Shown here piece by piece: positions 1,118-23,810 of a stretch of 64,000 bases of DNA. Numbering within the stretch: position 1 is the stretch's first letter; each line of letters starts with the position of its first letter. The notes under the pieces were generated by a model. That model did not search any database. It saw only the letters and a program-made list of their open reading frames with translations, and was not told the DNA's origin. The stretch spans positions 6,848 to 70,847 of the IMG/VR virus record IMGVR_UViG_3300034684_000292; one strand, 5' to 3'. This stretch comes from a virus. Position numbers and translations under genes: made by a program.

Positions 1118-1463
1118 TTTTACTCTTCTTTTTTAGTATTCTGTTTATTTTCTTAATCCTTCGTGTCAATAGACCAAATTTTCTCGGAGGTAGTATGTCT
1201 CTTCCTTCAAGACCATCTTTTAAATCATTCTGCAATTTAAGTTTTTCTCTAATTAATCTCTCATGCGACCAACTTTCCTTAGGTGCATTTGGATAATCGT
1301 CATGTTTCCAAAAACCATCCACAAAAACTTGTTTCTTACCCTTATACACTCTGTGTGTTTTAGAGATATATTGAGTGTCTCCAATATTTCTGAGATGTTT
1401 TCTTATAACACTCTTTTTATTTTTTCCGCTTCGTAAGTGTTGTTTTACATTAGTTTGTTTCAT
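1101..1463 (-). CDS. very basic hypothetical protein with VKxHxR...IRxHxR N-terminal motif
   Basis: MKQTNVKQHLRSGKNKKSVIRKHLR; tightly packed in the operon. Confidence 0.7.
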   Translation of the reverse strand: MKQTNVKQHLRSGKNKKSVIRKHLRNIGDTQYISKTHRVYKGKKQVFVDGFWKHDDYPNAPKESWSHERLIREKLKLQNDLKDGLEGRDILPPRKFGLLTRRIKKINRILKKKSKNGYTV

Positions 1464-2211
1464 TTCGTTTGCTCTTTCGTGAAACTTTTACCTTTTCGGG
1501 TATTTCTTCAAAGTCGGTAACCTCACCAATATCCTTACGTGAATCTGCTACTTCCTCAATTTCTATTGGTTTAGATTCCTCAATTGCAGGTTTGGAACTT
1601 CCACCGAATATCTTGGCAAGTATTCCACCGCCTGTATCGGATGCTCTACCTGTTGCAGTTACGTTAAGTGAGAATTTTTCTCTTTCGGAATCGATTTTCA
1701 TTCCCACCAATCCCAACAATCGGTCAATTTCTGAGGATAACCCCACATCTGGAACTCCTCCGTCAAGTTTTTCATACAAAGATGCTCTCTGAACTCTTTC
1801 ATATTGCAATTTAGTCATAAAATCAATCATTCCCGTAGCATCCTTTGGTCTGTTTTCGCCCCAATCTATTACACATTCATGGTCTTTTCTGTACATCGGG
1901 CATTTATCGAATATGTAACAAGTATTACAATTTATTCCCATGCCCAAATCATTCATGGAAATTTTAGTATCTCTCTTTATTATAGCAACAATATCAAACT
2001 CCTCACTCCATATATCCATAGGGTGAGTTTTGATATTTTCCAGATAAACATCCTTGCATTCCTCAAGGTCTTCCATTGTTTGTTTGCAGGTAATGCAATC
2101 CGGAAAATTTCCTTTCTGAAAGAACGGACACAGATGTTTCTTTAAATCCTCTTCTGTATCCGCACTTTTTATCAATGCTATTCTGCTTGCTATACTATCA
2201 CTTATTTTCAT
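1450..2211 (-). CDS. Cys-rich metal-binding protein directly downstream of the DpdA-like gene
   Basis: CPFF-x7-CxxC-x9-C and CNTCYIFDKC-x8-C clusters; start overlaps the dpdA stop. Confidence 0.75.
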   Translation of the reverse strand: MKISDSIASRIALIKSADTEEDLKKHLCPFFQKGNFPDCITCKQTMEDLEECKDVYLENIKTHPMDIWSEEFDIVAIIKRDTKISMNDLGMGINCNTCYIFDKCPMYRKDHECVIDWGENRPKDATGMIDFMTKLQYERVQRASLYEKLDGGVPDVGLSSEIDRLLGLVGMKIDSEREKFSLNVTATGRASDTGGGILAKIFGGSSKPAIEESKPIEIEEVADSRKDIGEVTDFEEIPEKVKVSRKSKRNETN

Positions 2212-3163
2212 AGTAAGAAACTACCTTATTGGTAAGTTTTAAGTTTGCATATTTAAGTACCTCTTTACGGAATCCCATCCAACCGAGTAAATTCATTTTG
2301 TTTATGGAAGTTCTGTCCTCAGTTTTAGTTACTTTATCGATATCAACTCCGATTTGTTCATACGCATACCTGTTTGCTTTTCGCAAATATTTTCTTTTGT
2401 AATCTATGGTTCTAAAATTTTTTCCGTCATAATCATACGTTGTACCGAAACGTACCCCACCTAACCACGTTACAGAATCCGCAGAAAAGAATGGGTATCT
2501 TTTAAGTAAATCAAATTCAGTCCATGCAAATCCATGTATTCTCCTGTTATAATACTTGGCTAATTGGTATATTTTTGCTGCTTGTTCCTTATGAACCTGA
2601 TTAACTCCCACATACTCATATCTCTTCATGTAATATTTCAGTGAATCCAATATAGTAGAATAAACATTTCCTTCATGCGCAACATATACAATTTGTATCC
2701 CATCTTTCTCCAACGGTTCAAAGTATTTTTGGTTCCACTTATGTACAACTTCCTGACCTACAATAGAATCAATATCCAAATTAGCTGCACAAAAAATATA
2801 CTTTTTATGCTCCCTAATCCAAGCAATATACTCCTCCAAATAAGGAATCCAGAACTTTTCATGCCTTGCTTCTTCATATTCGGGAGTACCTTCTCCAAAT
2901 TTGGAAGCAAAAGAAAATGCTCCTGAATCCGTCATAAATAAACCCCCTTGTTCTTTTATCAAAGGTAACATTTTATCGTAATATTCGAGACTTTTCTTCA
3001 AATAAAAATACGAAACAAGCATCTCCCGTATTCCAAAATCGTAAAGCTGTTGAAAATCTCCTGTTGATGAAGCCGAGAAAAACAATACAGATTTATTTTT
3101 GTGTTTTGAATAAGCGGTGAGCTCTTTTGATTTCCTCGTAGTATAACCTCGAATACTGCTCAT
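2198..3163 (-). CDS. dpdA: DpdA/TGT-like 7-deazaguanine DNA transglycosylase
   Basis: TGT-fold motifs MTDSGAFSF, ANLDID, RIHGFA, FFSADSVTWL; lies between queC and queE; ATG 3163 (TTG 3169). Confidence 0.8.
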   Translation of the reverse strand: MSSIRGYTTRKSKELTAYSKHKNKSVLFFSASSTGDFQQLYDFGIREMLVSYFYLKKSLEYYDKMLPLIKEQGGLFMTDSGAFSFASKFGEGTPEYEEARHEKFWIPYLEEYIAWIREHKKYIFCAANLDIDSIVGQEVVHKWNQKYFEPLEKDGIQIVYVAHEGNVYSTILDSLKYYMKRYEYVGVNQVHKEQAAKIYQLAKYYNRRIHGFAWTEFDLLKRYPFFSADSVTWLGGVRFGTTYDYDGKNFRTIDYKRKYLRKANRYAYEQIGVDIDKVTKTEDRTSINKMNLLGWMGFRKEVLKYANLKLTNKVVSYYENK

Positions 3164-3812
3164 CTTCAATTAATTTATAAGTGTATATAAAATCGTCTTC
3201 GGTTATGGGACTATCAAATAGTCGATGTTCATAGATTCCGTTATTGATTAAAGCTACTGCCCGATTAAAACAAACTCTGCATCTTCCACAACCTTTATCG
3301 GATACTCCGGAATAACAAGAACGAGCTTCCTGTATAAGTTTTACAGGCATTCCTTTTTCAATGGCAAGTGCAACCATCTCGGTTTTTGTCTTATCCTGAA
3401 ATGGTGCATAAAATCCATAATTCTCATTTTTCCATCCCATATCCATGATACAGTTCTTATTTAGATGTTCAAACATCTTGTTTATATCTCTGATAAACTT
3501 TTTATCCTTATCGGGAGCATCATCATGTTTATTAAATCCAAAATAAACATGTTGTCCATACTGCATACCAATAGTTCCGAGCAATAAATTCCTGTAAGGA
3601 AGATAACTGTTTGCTCTTTCATATTCCCCTATCGGAAGTTCCTTTATAATAAGTCTGTTTTGATACCTTTTAGGTAGTGTATGTAAATGTTCAATCTCTT
3701 TTTGTGAATATACAGTTTTCATATCCACATACAACAATACATTAGGTCTTATAAGCCATTCCTGTAATAAGGAATCGAAGCCTCCCGAAAATAATAAAAC
3801 TTTCTTTTCCAT
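3093..3812 (-). CDS. queC: 7-cyano-7-deazaguanine synthase (QueC-like)
   Basis: PP-loop VLLFSGGFDS, YLPYRNLL, Zn site SCY...CGRCRVC. Confidence 0.85.
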   Translation of the reverse strand: MEKKVLLFSGGFDSLLQEWLIRPNVLLYVDMKTVYSQKEIEHLHTLPKRYQNRLIIKELPIGEYERANSYLPYRNLLLGTIGMQYGQHVYFGFNKHDDAPDKDKKFIRDINKMFEHLNKNCIMDMGWKNENYGFYAPFQDKTKTEMVALAIEKGMPVKLIQEARSCYSGVSDKGCGRCRVCFNRAVALINNGIYEHRLFDSPITEDDFIYTYKLIEDEQYSRLYYEEIKRAHRLFKTQK

Positions 3813-3849
3813 AAAATAATAACTTTATCTTAGTAAAATCATAGATAAC

Positions 3850-3878
3850 AAAAAGGAACTCTATAAAAGAGTTCCTTT
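3850..3878 (-). terminator. intrinsic terminator after the histone-like peptide gene
   Basis: 11-bp perfect stem AAAGGAACTCT/AGAGTTCCTTT running into a T tract on the minus strand. Confidence 0.8.
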
Positions 3879-3887
3879 AAATTCACC

Positions 3888-4016
3888 TTACTTCGGTGAT
3901 TTTGAAGCCGTTTTAGCTCCACCTCTACCGGTAGCTCTTCCGCCAGCTTTACGACGAGTAGCTCGTTTTGCAGCAGGTTTAGCAGCAGGTTTGGTTGCCG
4001 TTCTTGTTCGTGCCAT
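3888..4016 (-). CDS. 42-aa K/R/A/G-rich histone-tail-like peptide (below ORF-track cutoff)
   Basis: MARTRTATKPAAKPAAKRATRRKAGGRATGRGGAKTASKSPK; own promoter, A-rich initiation region and terminator. Confidence 0.8.
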   Translation of the reverse strand: MARTRTATKPAAKPAAKRATRRKAGGRATGRGGAKTASKSPK

Positions 4017-4086
4017 AATTGTAATTATTAAAGCGCACAGCAGTATTATTTTATATAAAGCGATTAGCCGTTATAACCGCTCGGTG

Positions 4087-4117
4087 CAAATATACGAAGT
4101 ATATTCCAATTGTCAAA
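4087..4117 (-). promoter_or_regulatory. Bacteroidota housekeeping-sigma promoter (-33 TTTG / -7 TAnnTTTG)
   Basis: minus strand TTTG-acaattggaatatacttcg(19 nt)-TATATTTG. Confidence 0.75.
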
Positions 4118-4134
4118 TTATTTCCATAGAATTT

Positions 4135-4407
4135 TTATACTCTGTGATAAATAATTCTCAGGTCTATTGCAGTAACACCGTCTTCGGAAGTTTGAAATGA
4201 TGGTTGTATTCCCAACACAATTCCTGTTTTAATAAAAAATTTATTTGCAAGAATAACTCCTTTTACCGCCTGATTTAGTGCTCCAGCTCCTATAACCCTT
4301 ATGACAATAGGGGTTGTGGGGTCTTTTTTCCACAGCCCATGAATACTCCCCGATAGTCTTTTTGCATCCGTTGATGTTTTACATCTAAGTTCGTACCTTT
4401 CATCCAT
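4135..4407 (-). CDS. spoVS: SpoVS-family (Alba-like fold) nucleic-acid-binding protein
   Basis: Signature IGAGALNQAVK plus PSF...TAI, matches SpoVS. Confidence 0.85.
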   Translation of the reverse strand: MDERYELRCKTSTDAKRLSGSIHGLWKKDPTTPIVIRVIGAGALNQAVKGVILANKFFIKTGIVLGIQPSFQTSEDGVTAIDLRIIYHRV

Positions 4408-4448: not shown

Positions 4449-4853
4449 TTATTCATCAACTTTGGAAATATACTTGGCTATTTTTTCAATATCCTCAGGT
4501 CGAACCAATAATAAATACCCTTTTTCGCCTTTTTGTTTTATGGCCACAATGGGAACTTTCTTCTCAACTTTAGCTTTTGACTCAGTATCTTTAAATAAAC
4601 TCCACAGCGAAAACTTATTTCTGAGTTTGCATTCTATGTACAACTCTTCATGTAATGAATCGCTATTTGTATTATGCCTGCTATTACTACCCGATAACGG
4701 AACTCTTTCCGTACCGAAAAATTTAGCAACAGTTCTTTCAAATCCTTTCCAGCTTGTTTTGGAAGTAGGATGTTTTACAACTACTCCGTTTTTTCTGACT
4801 TGGTCTTTTTTGACTTTGCCTCTTTTTAATATGTTTCCTTTTCTAACAGGCAT
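4449..4853 (-). CDS. Holliday junction resolvase-like PD-(D/E)XK nuclease
   Basis: WKGFERTVA...PLSG...SD...IECK. Confidence 0.7.
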   Translation of the reverse strand: MPVRKGNILKRGKVKKDQVRKNGVVVKHPTSKTSWKGFERTVAKFFGTERVPLSGSNSRHNTNSDSLHEELYIECKLRNKFSLWSLFKDTESKAKVEKKVPIVAIKQKGEKGYLLLVRPEDIEKIAKYISKVDE

Positions 4854-21638: not shown

Positions 21639-22526
21639 TTAACCAATCCTTTTAATTTTGGTATGTACCTCAGGGTCGATTACATCTTCCGTGTCGTCTT
21701 CGTATGCGACCGTAACAGCAAGACCCTTCCTCGTTTTCTTGATTGATTTTACTTCTCCGTTGTACCATTCGTCAAAGTCGTCTCCTGCCCAATATACGGA
21801 AACTTTGTCTCCTTCTTCGAGGTCTTCCAATTCAACCAATTCCTCTTTCGGTTTTTTGGTCGATTTTTCTTTGCCCTTCGATTTTGGTTTTTCGACAACT
21901 TTTTTCTTTGTTTCTCCAGAAATAACTGCCGCAAGTTGTTCTGCAACATCATCAATTTCGATTGATTCGTCGCCCTCGAAATTGTCAATGATTCCTGCAA
22001 CCGCATCCTCATCAACTTCATCTCCAAGTGCAACAAGTTTGGAAATGGTTTTCTTTTTGTTCAGTGTCCCACTGTCAAAATCTTCGAGAATTTTTACGAC
22101 CGTTTCAACAACGGTTTCGTCAACAGCCGTTTCTTCTTCGTCCTCAACATCTTCGGCAGAATCATCCTCAGGTTCTTCTCCACCTTCCATTGCATCGAGG
22201 ATAAGTTCACGCAATTTTTTGTTTGTGTTCTTCCCTTCGTAATCCGCAGGGTCAATACCAAATTCGTCTTTCAGAATTTTGGTAAGTTCCTTCACAGATT
22301 TTTCCATCAGTTCATCCTCAGTATAGGAAGGAACTTCCTTTTCTTCGGGTGCAGCCTCAGGTGCAGATTTTGCAGTTGTAGTTTTAGGCTCATTTGATTC
22401 CGCAAAATCACCCATACTCATTACAGGTAAAAATACTTTACCCTCATGTTGAATAGCTTCAACTTCTAATCCGGCAGGAAATTGGGCCACAACGGTAGCC
22501 GTCGGTTTAACTTTTCCGAGTTTCAT
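21639..22526 (-). CDS. very acidic multidomain protein: HeH/Rho-N-like motif plus C-terminal Tudor/Agenet-like domain
   Basis: YTEDELMEKSVKELTKIL...NKKLRELIL; GDKVSVYWAGDDFDEWYNGEVKSI...VAYEDDTED; monocistronic. Confidence 0.7.
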   Translation of the reverse strand: MKLGKVKPTATVVAQFPAGLEVEAIQHEGKVFLPVMSMGDFAESNEPKTTTAKSAPEAAPEEKEVPSYTEDELMEKSVKELTKILKDEFGIDPADYEGKNTNKKLRELILDAMEGGEEPEDDSAEDVEDEEETAVDETVVETVVKILEDFDSGTLNKKKTISKLVALGDEVDEDAVAGIIDNFEGDESIEIDDVAEQLAAVISGETKKKVVEKPKSKGKEKSTKKPKEELVELEDLEEGDKVSVYWAGDDFDEWYNGEVKSIKKTRKGLAVTVAYEDDTEDVIDPEVHTKIKRIG

Positions 22527-23347: not shown

Positions 23348-23530
23348 TTAGTTTTTAGTGTTTATAAATTTTTCGTACAAATCATCCGCCGCTTTTTGCG
23401 ATAACTCCAATACTTTCTGTTCACTGTTACTCTGTTTGACAGCACCGAGTACTTCCACAGATAACGACAAAATGCGTTGCACTATCCAATTTTTTAATTG
23501 CGCTTGTTGTATAACATCCAAATCTTTCAT
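23348..23530 (-). CDS. hypothetical protein
   Basis: small helical ORF. Confidence 0.55.
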   Translation of the reverse strand: MKDLDVIQQAQLKNWIVQRILSLSVEVLGAVKQSNSEQKVLELSQKAADDLYEKFINTKN

Positions 23531-23810
23531 ACTTTAAAATTTTATAGACTATTATTTTAATTTCTTCGATTCCGGCTTTGGTTAATCTGTCGAAACGACT
23601 TTCATTCATATACGGAGTAATTAGTCTCCATTGTCCATTAACAACTTTACCGACTACCTCAGGTTCTCCAATATCCGAATAGAACATGTTGCAGTACTCT
23701 TCCTTTGCTTCAATATCGGTTTCTCTGTCAACTCTGAGATACGGCCCCGTGAATAAGCACCTTTTAGGTCTCGAACTCACGGAAATTAATGTCCCTACCA
23801 AAAATTTCAT
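23427..23810 (-). CDS. hypothetical protein
   Basis: 127-aa ORF; 3' end overlaps the next gene. Confidence 0.55.
   Translation of the reverse strand: MKFLVGTLISVSSRPKRCLFTGPYLRVDRETDIEAKEEYCNMFYSDIGEPEVVGKVVNGQWRLITPYMNESRFDRLTKAGIEEIKIIVYKILKYERFGCYTTSAIKKLDSATHFVVICGSTRCCQTE

What the first reader, a model, noticed from the sequence alone, without database searches (positions are those of the whole stretch)
3850..4117. Monocistronic 42-aa histone-tail-like peptide gene
Seen: an ORF missed by the track encodes MARTRTATKPAAKPAAKRATRRKAGGRATGRGGAKTASKSPK. It has 14 K/R, no acidic or aromatic residues, a consensus Bacteroidota promoter, a 5' hairpin (4059-4081) and a strong terminator, so it looks like a dedicated abundant transcript. 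Known: the H3 tail begins ARTKQTARKSTGGKA, H1 tails carry PAAK and SPK(K) motifs, and GRGG is an Arg-methylation context. Inference: a phage DNA-condensing or protamine-like peptide, or a mimic that is post-translationally modified. The H3 resemblance could be compositional convergence.
Basis: partly seen in the sequence, partly recalled or inferred. Interest (0 to 1): 0.78.

Follow-up and report, generated by a model that had tools for sequence, protein, structure and literature searches.

The report
Riboswitch-led basic peptide gene in phage
A Bacteroides-type phage carries a real, conserved gene for a tiny, strongly positively charged peptide, and its leader RNA is the same knotted element that sits in front of 7-deazaguanine (queC) genes in many other phages.

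Summary
Window 3888-4016 (-) is a 42-aa ORF with 14 K/R and no acidic or aromatic residue. It has a Bacteroidota-type promoter, a 5' hairpin and a strong terminator.

It is a real gene family. The same small basic ORF lies between a SpoVS-like and a QueC-like gene in 36 of 38 related IMG/VR loci and in two GenBank phages. G+C is high at codon positions 1-2 and low at position 3. Repeat-number variants stay in frame.

The histone H3 reading is not supported. There is no PDB, Pfam or NCBIfam match, the ART start is not conserved, and some members are K-rich and others R-rich. Charge and composition are conserved; sequence is not.

The main new result concerns the 5' hairpin. It is stem P1 of a conserved H-type pseudoknot, with covariation in both stems. 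The same element sits at the same distance upstream of canonical queC in many unrelated phage contigs. No Rfam 15 model detects it.

The peptide is therefore the first cistron, behind a candidate 7-deazapurine riboswitch, of the phage's queC-dpdA DNA-modification operon.

Best reading: an abundant nucleic-acid-binding polycation whose synthesis is tied to the supply of 7-deazaguanine precursor. Main rival: a purely regulatory leader ORF.

The parts
4114..4117 (-). -33 element TTTG of the promoter
   Evidence: Read. It lies inside the TTGACA hexamer reported. TTTG-type -33 and TAnnTTTG -7 boxes are seen at the same relative place in relatives.
4087..4094 (-). -7 element TATATTTG of the promoter, 19 nt downstream of the -33 TTTG
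   Evidence: The predicted start of the RNA, a few nt downstream (about 4083-4085), is inferred and not measured.
4033..4085 (-). Leader RNA element, an H-type pseudoknot. P1 is 4081-4075 paired with 4065-4059. P2 is 4071-4067 paired with 4041-4037. The A-rich L3, ending AAUAC(U), is 4058-4042. Candidate 7-deazapurine (preQ-type) riboswitch aptamer.
   Evidence: CM R1 hit at 4009-4085, 57.2 bits, E 1.2e-9, and the only good hit in the window. P2 has at least 4 bp in 47 of 47 distinct leaders, with 10 pair types. The P1 closing pair forms in 47 of 47, with all four Watson-Crick types. P1 covariation on queC-derived loci. The same element lies upstream of QueC in 52 of 115 pattern hits and in 43 of 75 QueC loci.
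3888..4016 (-). ORF of 42 codons plus stop: a polycationic peptide (net +14) with a central (R/K)GG(R/K)G core and an ...SKS-type C-terminus
   Evidence: Syntenic homologues. G+C by codon position 0.55/0.81/0.19. The ATG lies 25-29 nt after AAUAC in 38 of 38 peptide loci, as for the queC ATG.
3852..3878 (-). Intrinsic terminator: 11-bp stem, 5-nt loop, T run
   Evidence: A comparable hairpin plus U run follows the stop in 15 of 15 representatives of the family.
3093..3812 (-). QueC-like PP-loop ATPase, the next cistron. Its ATG lies about 40 nt after the terminator.
   Evidence: Pfam QueC 4.3e-18. phrog_1550 9.8e-25. Position conserved.
2198..3169 (-). DpdA/TGT-like guanine transglycosylase. 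It is followed by conserved genes at 1450-2211, 1101-1463 and 665-1117, and by a radical-SAM (QueE-like) gene at 1-675.
   Evidence: phrog_887 4.8e-31. Radical_SAM 9.9e-11. Synteny.
4135..4407 (-). SpoVS-like (Alba-superfamily) gene directly upstream of the promoter. It is a conserved neighbour. A functional link to the peptide is not shown.
   Evidence: Pfam SpoVS 8.3e-11. Neighbour in every peptide locus examined. SpoVS placed in the Alba superfamily: PMC11621453, passages read.

Best explanation
Window 3888-4016 (-) is a genuine phage gene for a 42-aa, intrinsically disordered polycation. It belongs to a family of 31-58 aa peptides rich in G, A, R, K and T.

It is transcribed from a strong Bacteroidota-type promoter as a short RNA that ends at an intrinsic terminator. 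Some read-through into the queC-like, dpdA-like and radical-SAM genes downstream is likely.

The first ~50 nt of this RNA fold into a conserved H-type pseudoknot. In other Bacteroidota-type phages the same pseudoknot sits at the same distance in front of queC. I read it as a riboswitch aptamer for a 7-deazapurine (preQ0 or preQ1 most likely) that gates translation of the first ORF behind it.

The peptide would thus be made in step with, and most likely inversely to, the supply of 7-deazaguanine precursor. It would act through its charge, by coating or condensing nucleic acid (phage DNA most likely), not through a specific histone-like sequence.

Shown: the gene is real and conserved; the pseudoknot exists and is linked to queC; the operon context.

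Inferred: the ligand, the sign of regulation, nucleic-acid binding, and the target.
For: (1) Conservation by position. A basic ORF of 31-58 aa lies about 100-120 nt downstream of the SpoVS homologue in 36 of 38 IMG/VR loci (L008-L045). The two without it are cut short. It is also present in BS162P1 and MT835482.

(2) Coding signature. In 29 distinct peptides G+C is 0.53-0.98 at codon position 2, but only 0.14-0.29 at position 3 in most (0.40-0.49 in the six most G+C-rich, 0.60 in L076). Net charge is +7 to +16. Composition is G 27, A 22.5, R 20.8, T 12, K 7.2%. There is no D, F, W, Y, C, H or Q.

(3) Frame kept. Repeat-number variants of 42-58 aa keep the same C-terminus. The C-terminal SKS is written with different codons: TCA AAA TCA, TCG AAG TCG, TCT AAA TCG, TCA AAA AGC.

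(4) Charge, not sequence. R-rich and K-rich members occupy the same slot.

(5) Leader pseudoknot. P2 has at least 4 bp in 47 of 47 distinct leaders and 10 pair types; its mean length is 5.23, against 4.01 +/- 0.13 when loops and tails are permuted. The P1 closing pair is UA 24, GC 12, CG 6, AU 4, UG 1. On loci fetched through QueC alone, P1 is 92.3% paired against 80.7 +/- 1.5, with 0 of 500 shuffles as high, and its third pair is GU 27, CG 7, UA 2, GC 1.

(6) Gene association. Of 115 pattern hits, 52 precede QueC, 38 precede the peptide and 25 precede neither. The AAUAC-to-ATG distance is 24-27 nt in 50 of 52 QueC cases and 25-29 nt in 38 of 38 peptide cases. Of 75 QueC loci, 43 carry the element just before the ATG. 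The L052 operon behind it is QueC, unknown, QueF, formyltransferase, AAA, GTP cyclohydrolase I.

(7) Operon context. The order SpoVS, [leader + peptide + terminator], QueC-like, DpdA-like... is conserved.

(8) One copy per phage.
Against: - No expression, peptide or binding data exist. No RNA run on record holds the locus.
- Residue-level constraint is weak. In close same-length pairs I counted 2 synonymous against 5 non-synonymous distinct codon changes, and repeat numbers drift. That is also what a spacer-like leader ORF would show.
- No Rfam model supports a riboswitch assignment.
- The element was not found in the bacterial genomes searched, so its ligand rests on gene association alone.
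- The pattern that found most leaders fixed several P1 bases. P1 covariation for those positions therefore comes only from the smaller QueC-derived set, whose alignment was fitted to the model.
- A terminator between the peptide and queC is an odd design if both need the same control.
Confidence: 0.55

Rival explanations
1. Regulatory leader ORF. The small ORF exists only so that riboswitch-gated translation can be turned into control of transcription into queC-dpdA, through polarity or read-through of the terminator that follows. The peptide itself has no job.
For: - The ORF sits exactly where queC's start codon sits in other phages.
- A terminator follows it in 15 of 15 representatives, and the queC-like ATG comes 65-86 nt after the stop, which leaves little room for a promoter of its own.
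- Residue-level constraint is weak and repeat number varies.
Against: - Composition is kept across clades that share almost no sequence. All 29 peptides carry net +7 to +16, R and K swap for each other, and acidic and aromatic residues are absent. The G+C-rich first and second codon positions are held against an A+T-rich background.
- A central (R/K)GG(R/K)G core and an SKS end recur, with synonymous codon differences.
- The gap from stop codon to terminator stem is about 9-28 nt (read). In most members that is too far for a terminating ribosome to mask the stem.
- queC-linked phages manage with the pseudoknot alone.
Confidence: 0.25
2. Partner of the SpoVS-like protein. This would be a split version of the Alba-domain plus RGG-tail design, forming a phage nucleoid- or RNA-binding pair independent of DNA modification.
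For: - The SpoVS gene is the upstream neighbour in every peptide locus seen.
- SpoVS belongs to the Alba superfamily, and RGG motifs commonly accompany Alba domains (PMC11621453, passages).
Against: - The whole block from the 283-aa gene to the radical-SAM gene is syntenic, so adjacency carries little weight.
- The peptide has its own promoter, and its leader ties it to queC, not to SpoVS.
- Several members have no RGG, only K, A and P.
- Five more distant SpoVS-bearing phage loci have no such peptide.
Confidence: 0.1
3. Histone H3/H1 tail mimic that is read or modified like a eukaryotic histone tail.
For: The window peptide starts ART, and contains PAAK, GRGG and SPK strings. An ESM Atlas neighbour cluster at score 0.84 has the HC2 family on 42% of its members, which is a lead only.
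Against: - 0 PDB matches at E<=10.
- 0 of 29 members hit any Pfam family at E<=1.
- 1 of 29 hits an NCBIfam family, at E 0.46.
- Only 3 of 29 start MART, and the motifs are not conserved among relatives.
- The host is a bacterium with no known histone-tail readers. The suggested Tudor-like protein at 21639-22526 has no Pfam match at E<=0.01.
Confidence: 0.04
4. Not a gene: a chance ORF in a G+C-rich patch, or an RNA-only element.
For: No homologue was found by two protein-database searches. The composition is low-complexity.
Against: - Position-specific G+C.
- The frame is kept across indels.
- The ATG lies at a fixed distance from the leader.
- The ORF is present in 36 of 38 loci and in all clades.
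Confidence: 0.03

Closest known systems
preQ1-I riboswitch (Rfam RF00522; types I-III as reviewed in PMC11625349, section 4 read)
   Same: - A small H-type pseudoknot: P1, a loop that donates the P2 5' strand, an A-rich L3, and a P2 3' strand just before the regulated start codon.
- An invariant UU at the top of the P1 5' strand.
- Sits in front of queC and preQ-pathway genes.
   Different: - RF00522 and every other Rfam 15 model fail to detect it.
- P1 (7 bp) and P2 (4-7 bp) are longer than I recall for preQ1-I.
- The P1 3' strand starts with an invariant AA that appears to pair with the invariant UU of the 5' strand (UA in 37 of 37 at both pairs). The loop base before it is U in most, not the UC or AC specificity motif described in the review.
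- L3 ends in an invariant AAUAC.
- A short-L3 subtype exists.
- There is no Shine-Dalgarno sequence to hide.
- So far it is seen only in phage contigs.
- The ligand is untested.
Protamine-like and H1-tail-like polycations of bacteria (Hc2 family PF07382, AlgP-type KPAA repeats; names recalled, not from a call, except PF07382)
   Same: Lys/Arg/Ala/Pro/Gly low-complexity composition, strong positive charge and predicted disorder. The K-rich members (L028, L045) look like H1 C-terminal tails.
   Different: - Ten-fold smaller.
- No Pfam or NCBIfam match.
- Phage-encoded.
- Expressed behind a metabolite-type RNA element, at the head of a DNA-modification operon.
Histone H3 N-terminal tail
   Same: ART start, and K/R/T/A/G richness, in the window's copy only.
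   Different: No detectable similarity. The motif is not conserved in the family.
Alba-domain proteins with RGG tails (PMC11621453, passages)
   Same: An Alba-superfamily protein (SpoVS-like) lies next to an RGG-rich sequence.
   Different: The two are separate genes with separate promoters. RGG is absent from several members. No interaction is shown.
Leader peptides of attenuators and upstream ORFs coupled to riboswitches (general knowledge, recalled)
   Same: A short ORF lies between a regulatory RNA and an operon, with a terminator before the structural genes.
   Different: The composition is conserved and highly charged. There are no diagnostic codon runs for a sensed amino acid. The stop codon is mostly too far from the terminator.

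Membership tests
Histone H3 tail mimic | Detectable sequence similarity to H3 N-terminal tails | tested here: not met
   phmmer against 177,635 distinct PDB chain sequences gives 0 hits at E<=10.
Histone H3 tail mimic | ART(K) start and tail motifs conserved among relatives | tested here: not met
   3 of 29 distinct peptides begin MART and none has ARTK. Other N-termini are MAK, MGTT, MPR, MPK and MSR.
Histone H3 tail mimic | Lys/Arg methylation or acetylation at defined positions | not testable with these tools
   Needs mass spectrometry.
Bacterial H1-like nucleoproteins (Hc1/Hc2 Pfam families) | Match to the family profile | tested here: not met
   0 of 29 members match any Pfam-A family at E<=1. 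The only link is an ESM Atlas neighbour cluster at 0.84 with HC2 on 42% of members, which is a lead only.
Protamine-like DNA-condensing polycation (functional class) | Very high net positive charge, no acidic residues, low complexity | tested here: met
   Net +7 to +16 in 29 of 29. One E in all sequences pooled.
Protamine-like DNA-condensing polycation (functional class) | Binds and compacts DNA; present with the packaged genome | not testable with these tools
   Needs EMSA or compaction assays and virion proteomics without trypsin.
preQ1-I riboswitch (RF00522) | Score over the Rfam gathering threshold (39 bits) | tested here: not met
   No hit at E<=10 on the window leader or on a queC-linked leader. 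The only hit in the whole virus record is 9.4 bits, elsewhere.
preQ1-I riboswitch (RF00522) | H-type pseudoknot with an A-rich L3 between P1 and the P2 3' strand | tested here: met
   The short-L3 variants keep only AAUAC.
preQ1-I riboswitch (RF00522) | Specificity cytosine (UC or AC) directly 5' of the P1 3' strand (feature taken from PMC11625349, section 4) | tested here: not met
   The P1 3' strand begins with an invariant AA that appears to pair with the invariant UU of the 5' strand (UA 37 of 37 at both pairs). The unpaired loop base before it is U in most leaders.
preQ1-I riboswitch (RF00522) | Association with queuosine or 7-deazaguanine genes | tested here: met
   52 of 115 pattern hits lie directly before QueC, as do 43 of 75 QueC loci. 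The remaining family members precede peptide plus QueC-like genes.
preQ1-I riboswitch (RF00522) | Binds preQ1 or preQ0 and changes expression | not testable with these tools
   Needs in-line probing or ITC, and reporters.
Attenuator leader peptide | Short ORF followed by a terminator ahead of the operon | tested here: met
   15 of 15 representatives.
Attenuator leader peptide | A ribosome at the end of the ORF can mask the terminator or anti-terminator | tested here: inconclusive
   The stop-to-stem gap is about 9 nt in the window but about 12-28 nt in the others (read).

The most novel reading that the evidence does not exclude
A new class or subtype of 7-deazapurine-sensing riboswitch, confined so far to phages of Bacteroidota, has been put to a second use. 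It switches a protamine-like polycation on when the precursor for 7-deazaguanine DNA modification is scarce. Newly made phage DNA would then be shielded by charge coating, from restriction or other DNA-targeting defence, until base modification can take over. This would be a metabolite-gated 'phage chromatin' that backs up DNA hypermodification.
Probability: 0.15. Interest if true: 0.88.

Novelty: new variant of a known kind. Interest (0 to 1): 0.72.

Why it matters
Two things follow if this holds.

First, a small RNA pseudoknot that no Rfam model recognises precedes queC or 7-deazaguanine operons in many phage contigs. It is found in 43 of the 75 QueC loci that were searched, out of at least 600 QueC stretches in IMG/VR. 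It has the hallmarks of a riboswitch. It works in phages whose genes here show no Shine-Dalgarno sequence, and such mRNAs are named as an open challenge in a recent preQ1 review (PMC11625349, abstract). [quoted passage not shown]

Second, in one clade of gut Bacteroides-type phages the same switch drives a gene for a tiny polycation instead of an enzyme. A riboswitch controlling a charge-only peptide at the head of a DNA-hypermodification operon has, as far as my searches show, not been described. It would link base modification with physical coating of phage DNA. BS162P1 and its host strain exist in culture, so this can be tested.

Tried and rejected
- S15-Flavobacteria ribosomal leader (RF03161). 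It scored 21.5 bits against a 46.5 cut-off on the window leader. The match rests on the promoter box and the A-rich stretch, and it is absent in L001 and L002. Rejected.

- Protein homology searches. The single peptide gave no candidates. The alignment of 29 peptides gave none at E<=1e-3 among 8000 scored. PHROGs and PADLOC gave nothing. Lengths 'longer' and 'shorter' were not searched, so fused forms are not excluded.

- Extra copies of the leader. The 14-mer with 3 mismatches is at chance level, 5 found against 4.66 expected. The CM gives one good hit, plus a 17.9-bit hit at E 0.8 at 23515-23603 that I did not follow.

- Bacterial genomes.
None of the 120 had the A-rich L3 and a queC or peptide ORF, and only 2 had a chance P2 match.
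  - By my rough estimate, chance alone would give hundreds of hits in that collection.
  - CM R1 gave 0 of 3 and 0 of 151 genomes.
  - RF00522 gave 0 of 121 genomes of the same phylum sample, with B. subtilis as the only control that rang.
  - These are samples with strict filters, so the result is 'not found in those searched', not 'absent'.

- RNA evidence. No RNA holder is listed. I laid 4 runs, all of them contigs. One run is labelled RNA-Seq cDNA but flagged 'probably DNA'. It has a single 181-nt contig that covers 3897-4073 only, which is leader plus ORF. Contigs cannot show ends, strand or level, so this is not evidence.

- Complex prediction of SpoVS-like protein with the peptide: no verdict, score 0.00. 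It is not evidence either way.

- Residue-level selection. Only 9 close same-length pairs were available, giving 2 synonymous against 5 non-synonymous distinct codon changes. That is too few to test.

- A3, a trimmed leader alignment, was misaligned by one column in P1 and was not used.

- CM R1 does not detect the short-L3 variants (L045; immuto phage). Those were read by eye.

- Literature.
  - Searches found no paper describing a riboswitch in front of phage queC, or a fourth preQ1 class.
  - PMC10516641 contains no occurrence of the word 'riboswitch'.
  - Only the held library was searched, and supplements are closed. The supplementary gene tables of the 7-deazaguanine papers might name the small ORF or the intergenic element.

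- Rows dropped.
  - 25 of the 115 pattern hits were left out of the leader alignment because no QueC or basic ORF followed. At least two of them (L082, cut by the contig end, and L138) are true elements by CM.
  - 5 of the 80 QueC loci were not given to the CM search. At least 4 of them duplicate loci that were searched, by the contigs listed and the sequences.
Full report
**What is in the sequence**

It has 7 Arg and 7 Lys, and no acidic or aromatic residue.

Among 323 ATG-started ORFs of at least 30 aa in all six frames of the window, it is the only one with at least 25% K+R and no D, E, F, W or Y.

It forms a local G+C peak: 0.50 over 3900-4019 against about 0.3 around it, with a window mean of 0.364.

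Upstream lies TTGACA-16-TATATT at 4116..4089. Read, this is TTTG (4117-4114), 19 nt, TATATTTG (4094-4087). That is the Bacteroides-type promoter form as I recall it.

Downstream lies an 11-bp hairpin with a T run at 3878..3852.

**Setting**

The window is part of a 70,847-nt IMG/VR virus record, with completeness estimated at 82%. All long ORFs lie on the minus strand, and no tRNA was found.

Around the peptide gene, in the direction of transcription, lie:
- a RusA-like resolvase, 4449-4853 (PHROG);
- a SpoVS-like protein, 4135-4407 (Pfam 8.3e-11);
- the peptide gene;
- a QueC-like protein, 3093-3812 (Pfam 4.3e-18);
- a DpdA/TGT-like transglycosylase, 2198-3169 (phrog_887, 4.8e-31);
- three conserved unknown genes;
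- a radical-SAM, QueE-like protein, 1-675.

This is a phage 7-deazaguanine DNA-modification cluster of the kind described in PMC6884629 (abstract seen in the listing) and PMC10516641 (passages).

**Is it a gene?**

The nearest named relative is Bacteroides phage BS162P1, at 66.7% nucleotide identity over 53% of a 3.6-kb query. It has an annotated 36-aa hypothetical CDS in the same slot. The unannotated record MT835482 has a 43-aa ORF there.

I fetched 43 IMG/VR loci through the SpoVS homologue.
- 36 of the 38 closer loci (L008-L045) have a basic ORF of 31-58 aa about 100-120 nt downstream of SpoVS.
- The other two loci end before that point.
- None of the five distant SpoVS loci has one.

Together with the loci found later, there are 29 distinct peptides.
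- Their net charge is +7 to +16.
- Pooled composition is G 27%, A 22.5%, R 20.8%, T 12%, K 7.2%, S 4.9%, P 3.4%.
- They have a single Glu in all, and no D, F, W, Y, C, H or Q.

G+C is confined to codon positions 1 and 2. In the window it is 0.55/0.81/0.19. Position 2 reaches 0.98 in others. Position 3 is 0.14-0.29 in most, 0.40-0.49 in the six most G+C-rich members and 0.60 in L076. This pattern is expected if the amino acids are selected, and not if the RNA or DNA composition is selected.

In the MGTT... clade a 10-residue repeat varies in copy number, giving peptides of 42 to 58 aa, yet all members end in the same ...GGRRR. The indels therefore keep the frame.

The C-terminal SKS shared by several clades is written with different codons, including a TCN/AGC serine switch.

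I conclude that the ORF is translated.

**What is conserved in the peptide**

Very little sequence is conserved. There is a Met-Ala-(Arg/Lys) start in many members, a central (R/K)GG(R/K)G core, and an Ala-rich stretch ending in (T/G)(A/S)SKS in many.

Some members are Arg/Gly-rich, and others contain only Lys, Ala and Pro (L028, L045, L076). Within close same-length pairs I counted 2 synonymous and 5 non-synonymous distinct codon changes. That is too few for a test, but it gives no sign of tight residue-level constraint.

The conserved property is therefore charge and disorder.

**The histone reading**

- phmmer of the peptide against all PDB chains finds nothing at E<=10. The PDB holds many histone chains; that is my recall, not a tool result.
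- None of the 29 peptides matches any Pfam family at E<=1.
- One of the 29 matches an NCBIfam family, at E 0.46.
- Two searches of the 5.8-billion-protein collection find nothing.
- The ESM Atlas returns unnamed small-protein clusters at 0.90 and 0.89. It also returns a cluster at 0.84 in which 42% of members carry the HC2 family. These are leads only.
- Only 3 of 29 peptides begin MART.

The 'H1-tail or protamine-like' description is a fair label for the composition, but not a family assignment.

**The leader**

When I aligned the region between promoter and ATG in ten relatives, it was more conserved than the ORF. RNAalifold recovered the hairpin, with compensatory changes in two pairs.

- 38 precede a basic peptide ORF.
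- 52 precede a canonical QueC ORF.
- 25 precede neither, and these are mostly chance matches. L082 and L138 among them are true elements by CM.

The distance from the conserved AAUAC to the ATG is 24-27 nt in 50 of 52 QueC cases and 25-29 nt in 38 of 38 peptide cases.

In 47 distinct leaders (alignment A2), the four bases at the 3' end of the hairpin loop pair with the four bases that follow AAUAC.
- This P2 pairing holds in 47 of 47.
- It shows ten different pair combinations: GAGC/GCUC 25, CAGC/GCUG 7, AAGC/GCUU 4, CGGC/GCCG 4, and others.
- Mean helix length is 5.23, against 4.01 +/- 0.13 when loops and tails are permuted (maximum 4.45 in 2000 permutations).

The closing pair of P1 is UA 24, GC 12, CG 6, AU 4, UG 1.

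My pattern had fixed part of P1. I therefore fetched 80 loci through the QueC protein alone; at least 600 stretches in IMG/VR encode it. I then searched 75 of these loci with a covariance model built from A2. 43 of them carry the element directly before the QueC ATG.

On that alignment, which was fitted to the model:
- P1 is 92.3% paired against 80.7 +/- 1.5 in shuffles (0 of 500 as high);
- the covariation score is 0.311 against 0.090;
- the third pair is GU 27, CG 7, UA 2, GC 1.

Variants also show a change of the P2 GC pair to AC/GU (L300). There is also a subtype with a short L3 that keeps only (A/U)AAUAC (L299, L330, L339, L365). The leader of the most divergent peptide locus, L045, looks like this subtype.

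The element is thus an H-type pseudoknot with invariant bases at the helix junction: GGUU, (C/G)U, AA and AAUAC.

In the window:
- P1 is 4081-4075 paired with 4065-4059;
- P2 is 4071-4067 paired with 4041-4037;
- L3 is 4058-4042;
- the ATG follows 20 nt after P2.

The promoter places the RNA start a few bases before P1. This start is inferred.

**What the element is**

In L052 the genes behind the element are QueC (8.1e-35), an unknown, QueF, a PF00551 formyltransferase, an AAA protein and GTP cyclohydrolase I. That is a preQ1-type pathway.

[quoted passage not shown] Its DNA is reported to contain formyl-preQ1, with a PF00551 enzyme proposed as the formyltransferase (PMC10516641, passages). 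By eye, the immuto queC leader carries the short-L3 variant, although my model does not score it.

The QueC proteins of the two phage groups are too different to find each other by tblastn at 1e-3, yet the RNA element is nearly the same. That pattern is typical of riboswitch aptamers.

The architecture resembles preQ1-I: an H-type pseudoknot, an A-rich L3, and UU on top of the P1 5' strand (features taken from PMC11625349, section 4). However:
- no Rfam 15 model, PreQ1 included, matches at E<=10 on the window leader or on a queC-linked leader;
- none matches at E<=1 on nine queC-linked loci;
- RF00522 finds only a 9.4-bit hit elsewhere in the whole virus record;
- the UC/AC specificity motif before the P1 3' strand is not present.

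I did not find the element in the bacterial genomes searched. I found no paper that describes it.

I therefore call it a candidate riboswitch for a 7-deazapurine, either a new class or a distant subtype of the preQ1 family. The ligand is inferred from gene association only.

**How the locus is built**

In 15 of 15 representatives, the peptide stop is followed by a 10-14-bp hairpin with a U run. The QueC-like ATG then comes 65-86 nt after the stop.

In the MGTT clade the gene after the terminator is also QueC-like (Pfam 2.8e-16). The order SpoVS, [promoter, pseudoknot, peptide, terminator], QueC-like, DpdA-like is general.

There is one copy of the element per phage. A stricter form of the pattern returns 38 IMG/VR stretches in all. 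By their contigs, 37 of these lie in the peptide-type context, and L160 is the exception.

**Interpretation**

The peptide's start codon occupies the place that queC's start codon holds in the Flavobacterium-type phages. Whatever the element senses, it therefore controls the peptide first. The enzymes downstream can be reached only by reading through the terminator, or from a weak promoter-like site at 3867..3838.

Two readings fit.

The first, which I prefer at 0.55, is that the peptide is the wanted product. It would be an abundant polycation that binds nucleic acid by charge. The terminator would set a high peptide-to-enzyme ratio, and synthesis would be tied to the 7-deazaguanine precursor pool. 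This reading is favoured by three points: composition is conserved across clades with almost no shared sequence, Arg and Lys swap for each other, and the stop-to-terminator gap is mostly too long for ribosome masking.

The second, at 0.25, is that the ORF is only a regulatory leader that converts translational control into control of transcription. It is favoured by the weak residue-level constraint and by the terminator.

A link to the SpoVS-like neighbour, as a split Alba-plus-RGG design (PMC11621453), is possible. It rests on adjacency within a block that is syntenic as a whole.

The boldest reading not excluded is that the polycation shields unmodified phage DNA when precursor is short.

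**Limits**

- Nothing here shows expression, translation, ligand binding or nucleic-acid binding.
- The leaders were first found with a pattern of my own, which biases what was seen. The QueC-based retrieval corrects this only in part.
- Supplementary tables of the 7-deazaguanine papers could not be read.

Noticed in passing
L002:1260-3458 (MT835482.1): The DpdA homologue is one 732-aa ORF. Its N- and C-terminal DpdA halves (tblastn hits at 3461-2802 and 1589-1263) are separated by an insert of about 400 aa that ends in ...VVHN followed by T. It looks like an intein inside DpdA.
   Followed up: no
L001:5228-6220 (BS162P1, CDS annotated 'DNA endonuclease I-HmuI'): The RusA-like resolvase matches both ends of this CDS (5587-5240 and 6223-6119). 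The HNH endonuclease may therefore be an insertion into the resolvase gene, or a fusion with it.
   Followed up: no
L022-L041 (MGTT... clade), about 2868-3044: A 30-nt (10-aa) repeat inside the peptide gene varies in copy number among otherwise near-identical phage contigs, giving peptides of 33 to 58 aa. It behaves as a slippage-prone hypervariable tract.
   Followed up: partly
[quoted passage not shown]: By eye, this is a short-L3 variant of the pseudoknot: an ACGU/ACGU stem, a loop UCGCCUAU, then AUUAAUAC C UGGCA. The same subtype occurs in L299, L330, L339 and L365. My covariance model does not detect it, so the family is wider than the model.
   Followed up: partly
window 23515-23603 (-): A weak match to the leader model (17.9 bits, E 0.8). 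It is probably noise.
   Followed up: no
It has no Pfam match at E<=0.01, so I see no support for a methyl-Arg/Lys reader from that test alone.
   Followed up: partly
window 1450-2211 (-): The 253-aa gene directly after dpdA is conserved in the same place in all relatives checked, at 46-52% identity. It has no Pfam or PADLOC match. It is a conserved unknown member of the modification cluster.
   Followed up: partly
L138:6618-6694: A true copy of the leader element (59.6 bits). The first long ORF after it starts 92 nt downstream and is Cys/Lys-rich, and is neither QueC nor a basic peptide. It may be a third kind of regulated gene.
   Followed up: no
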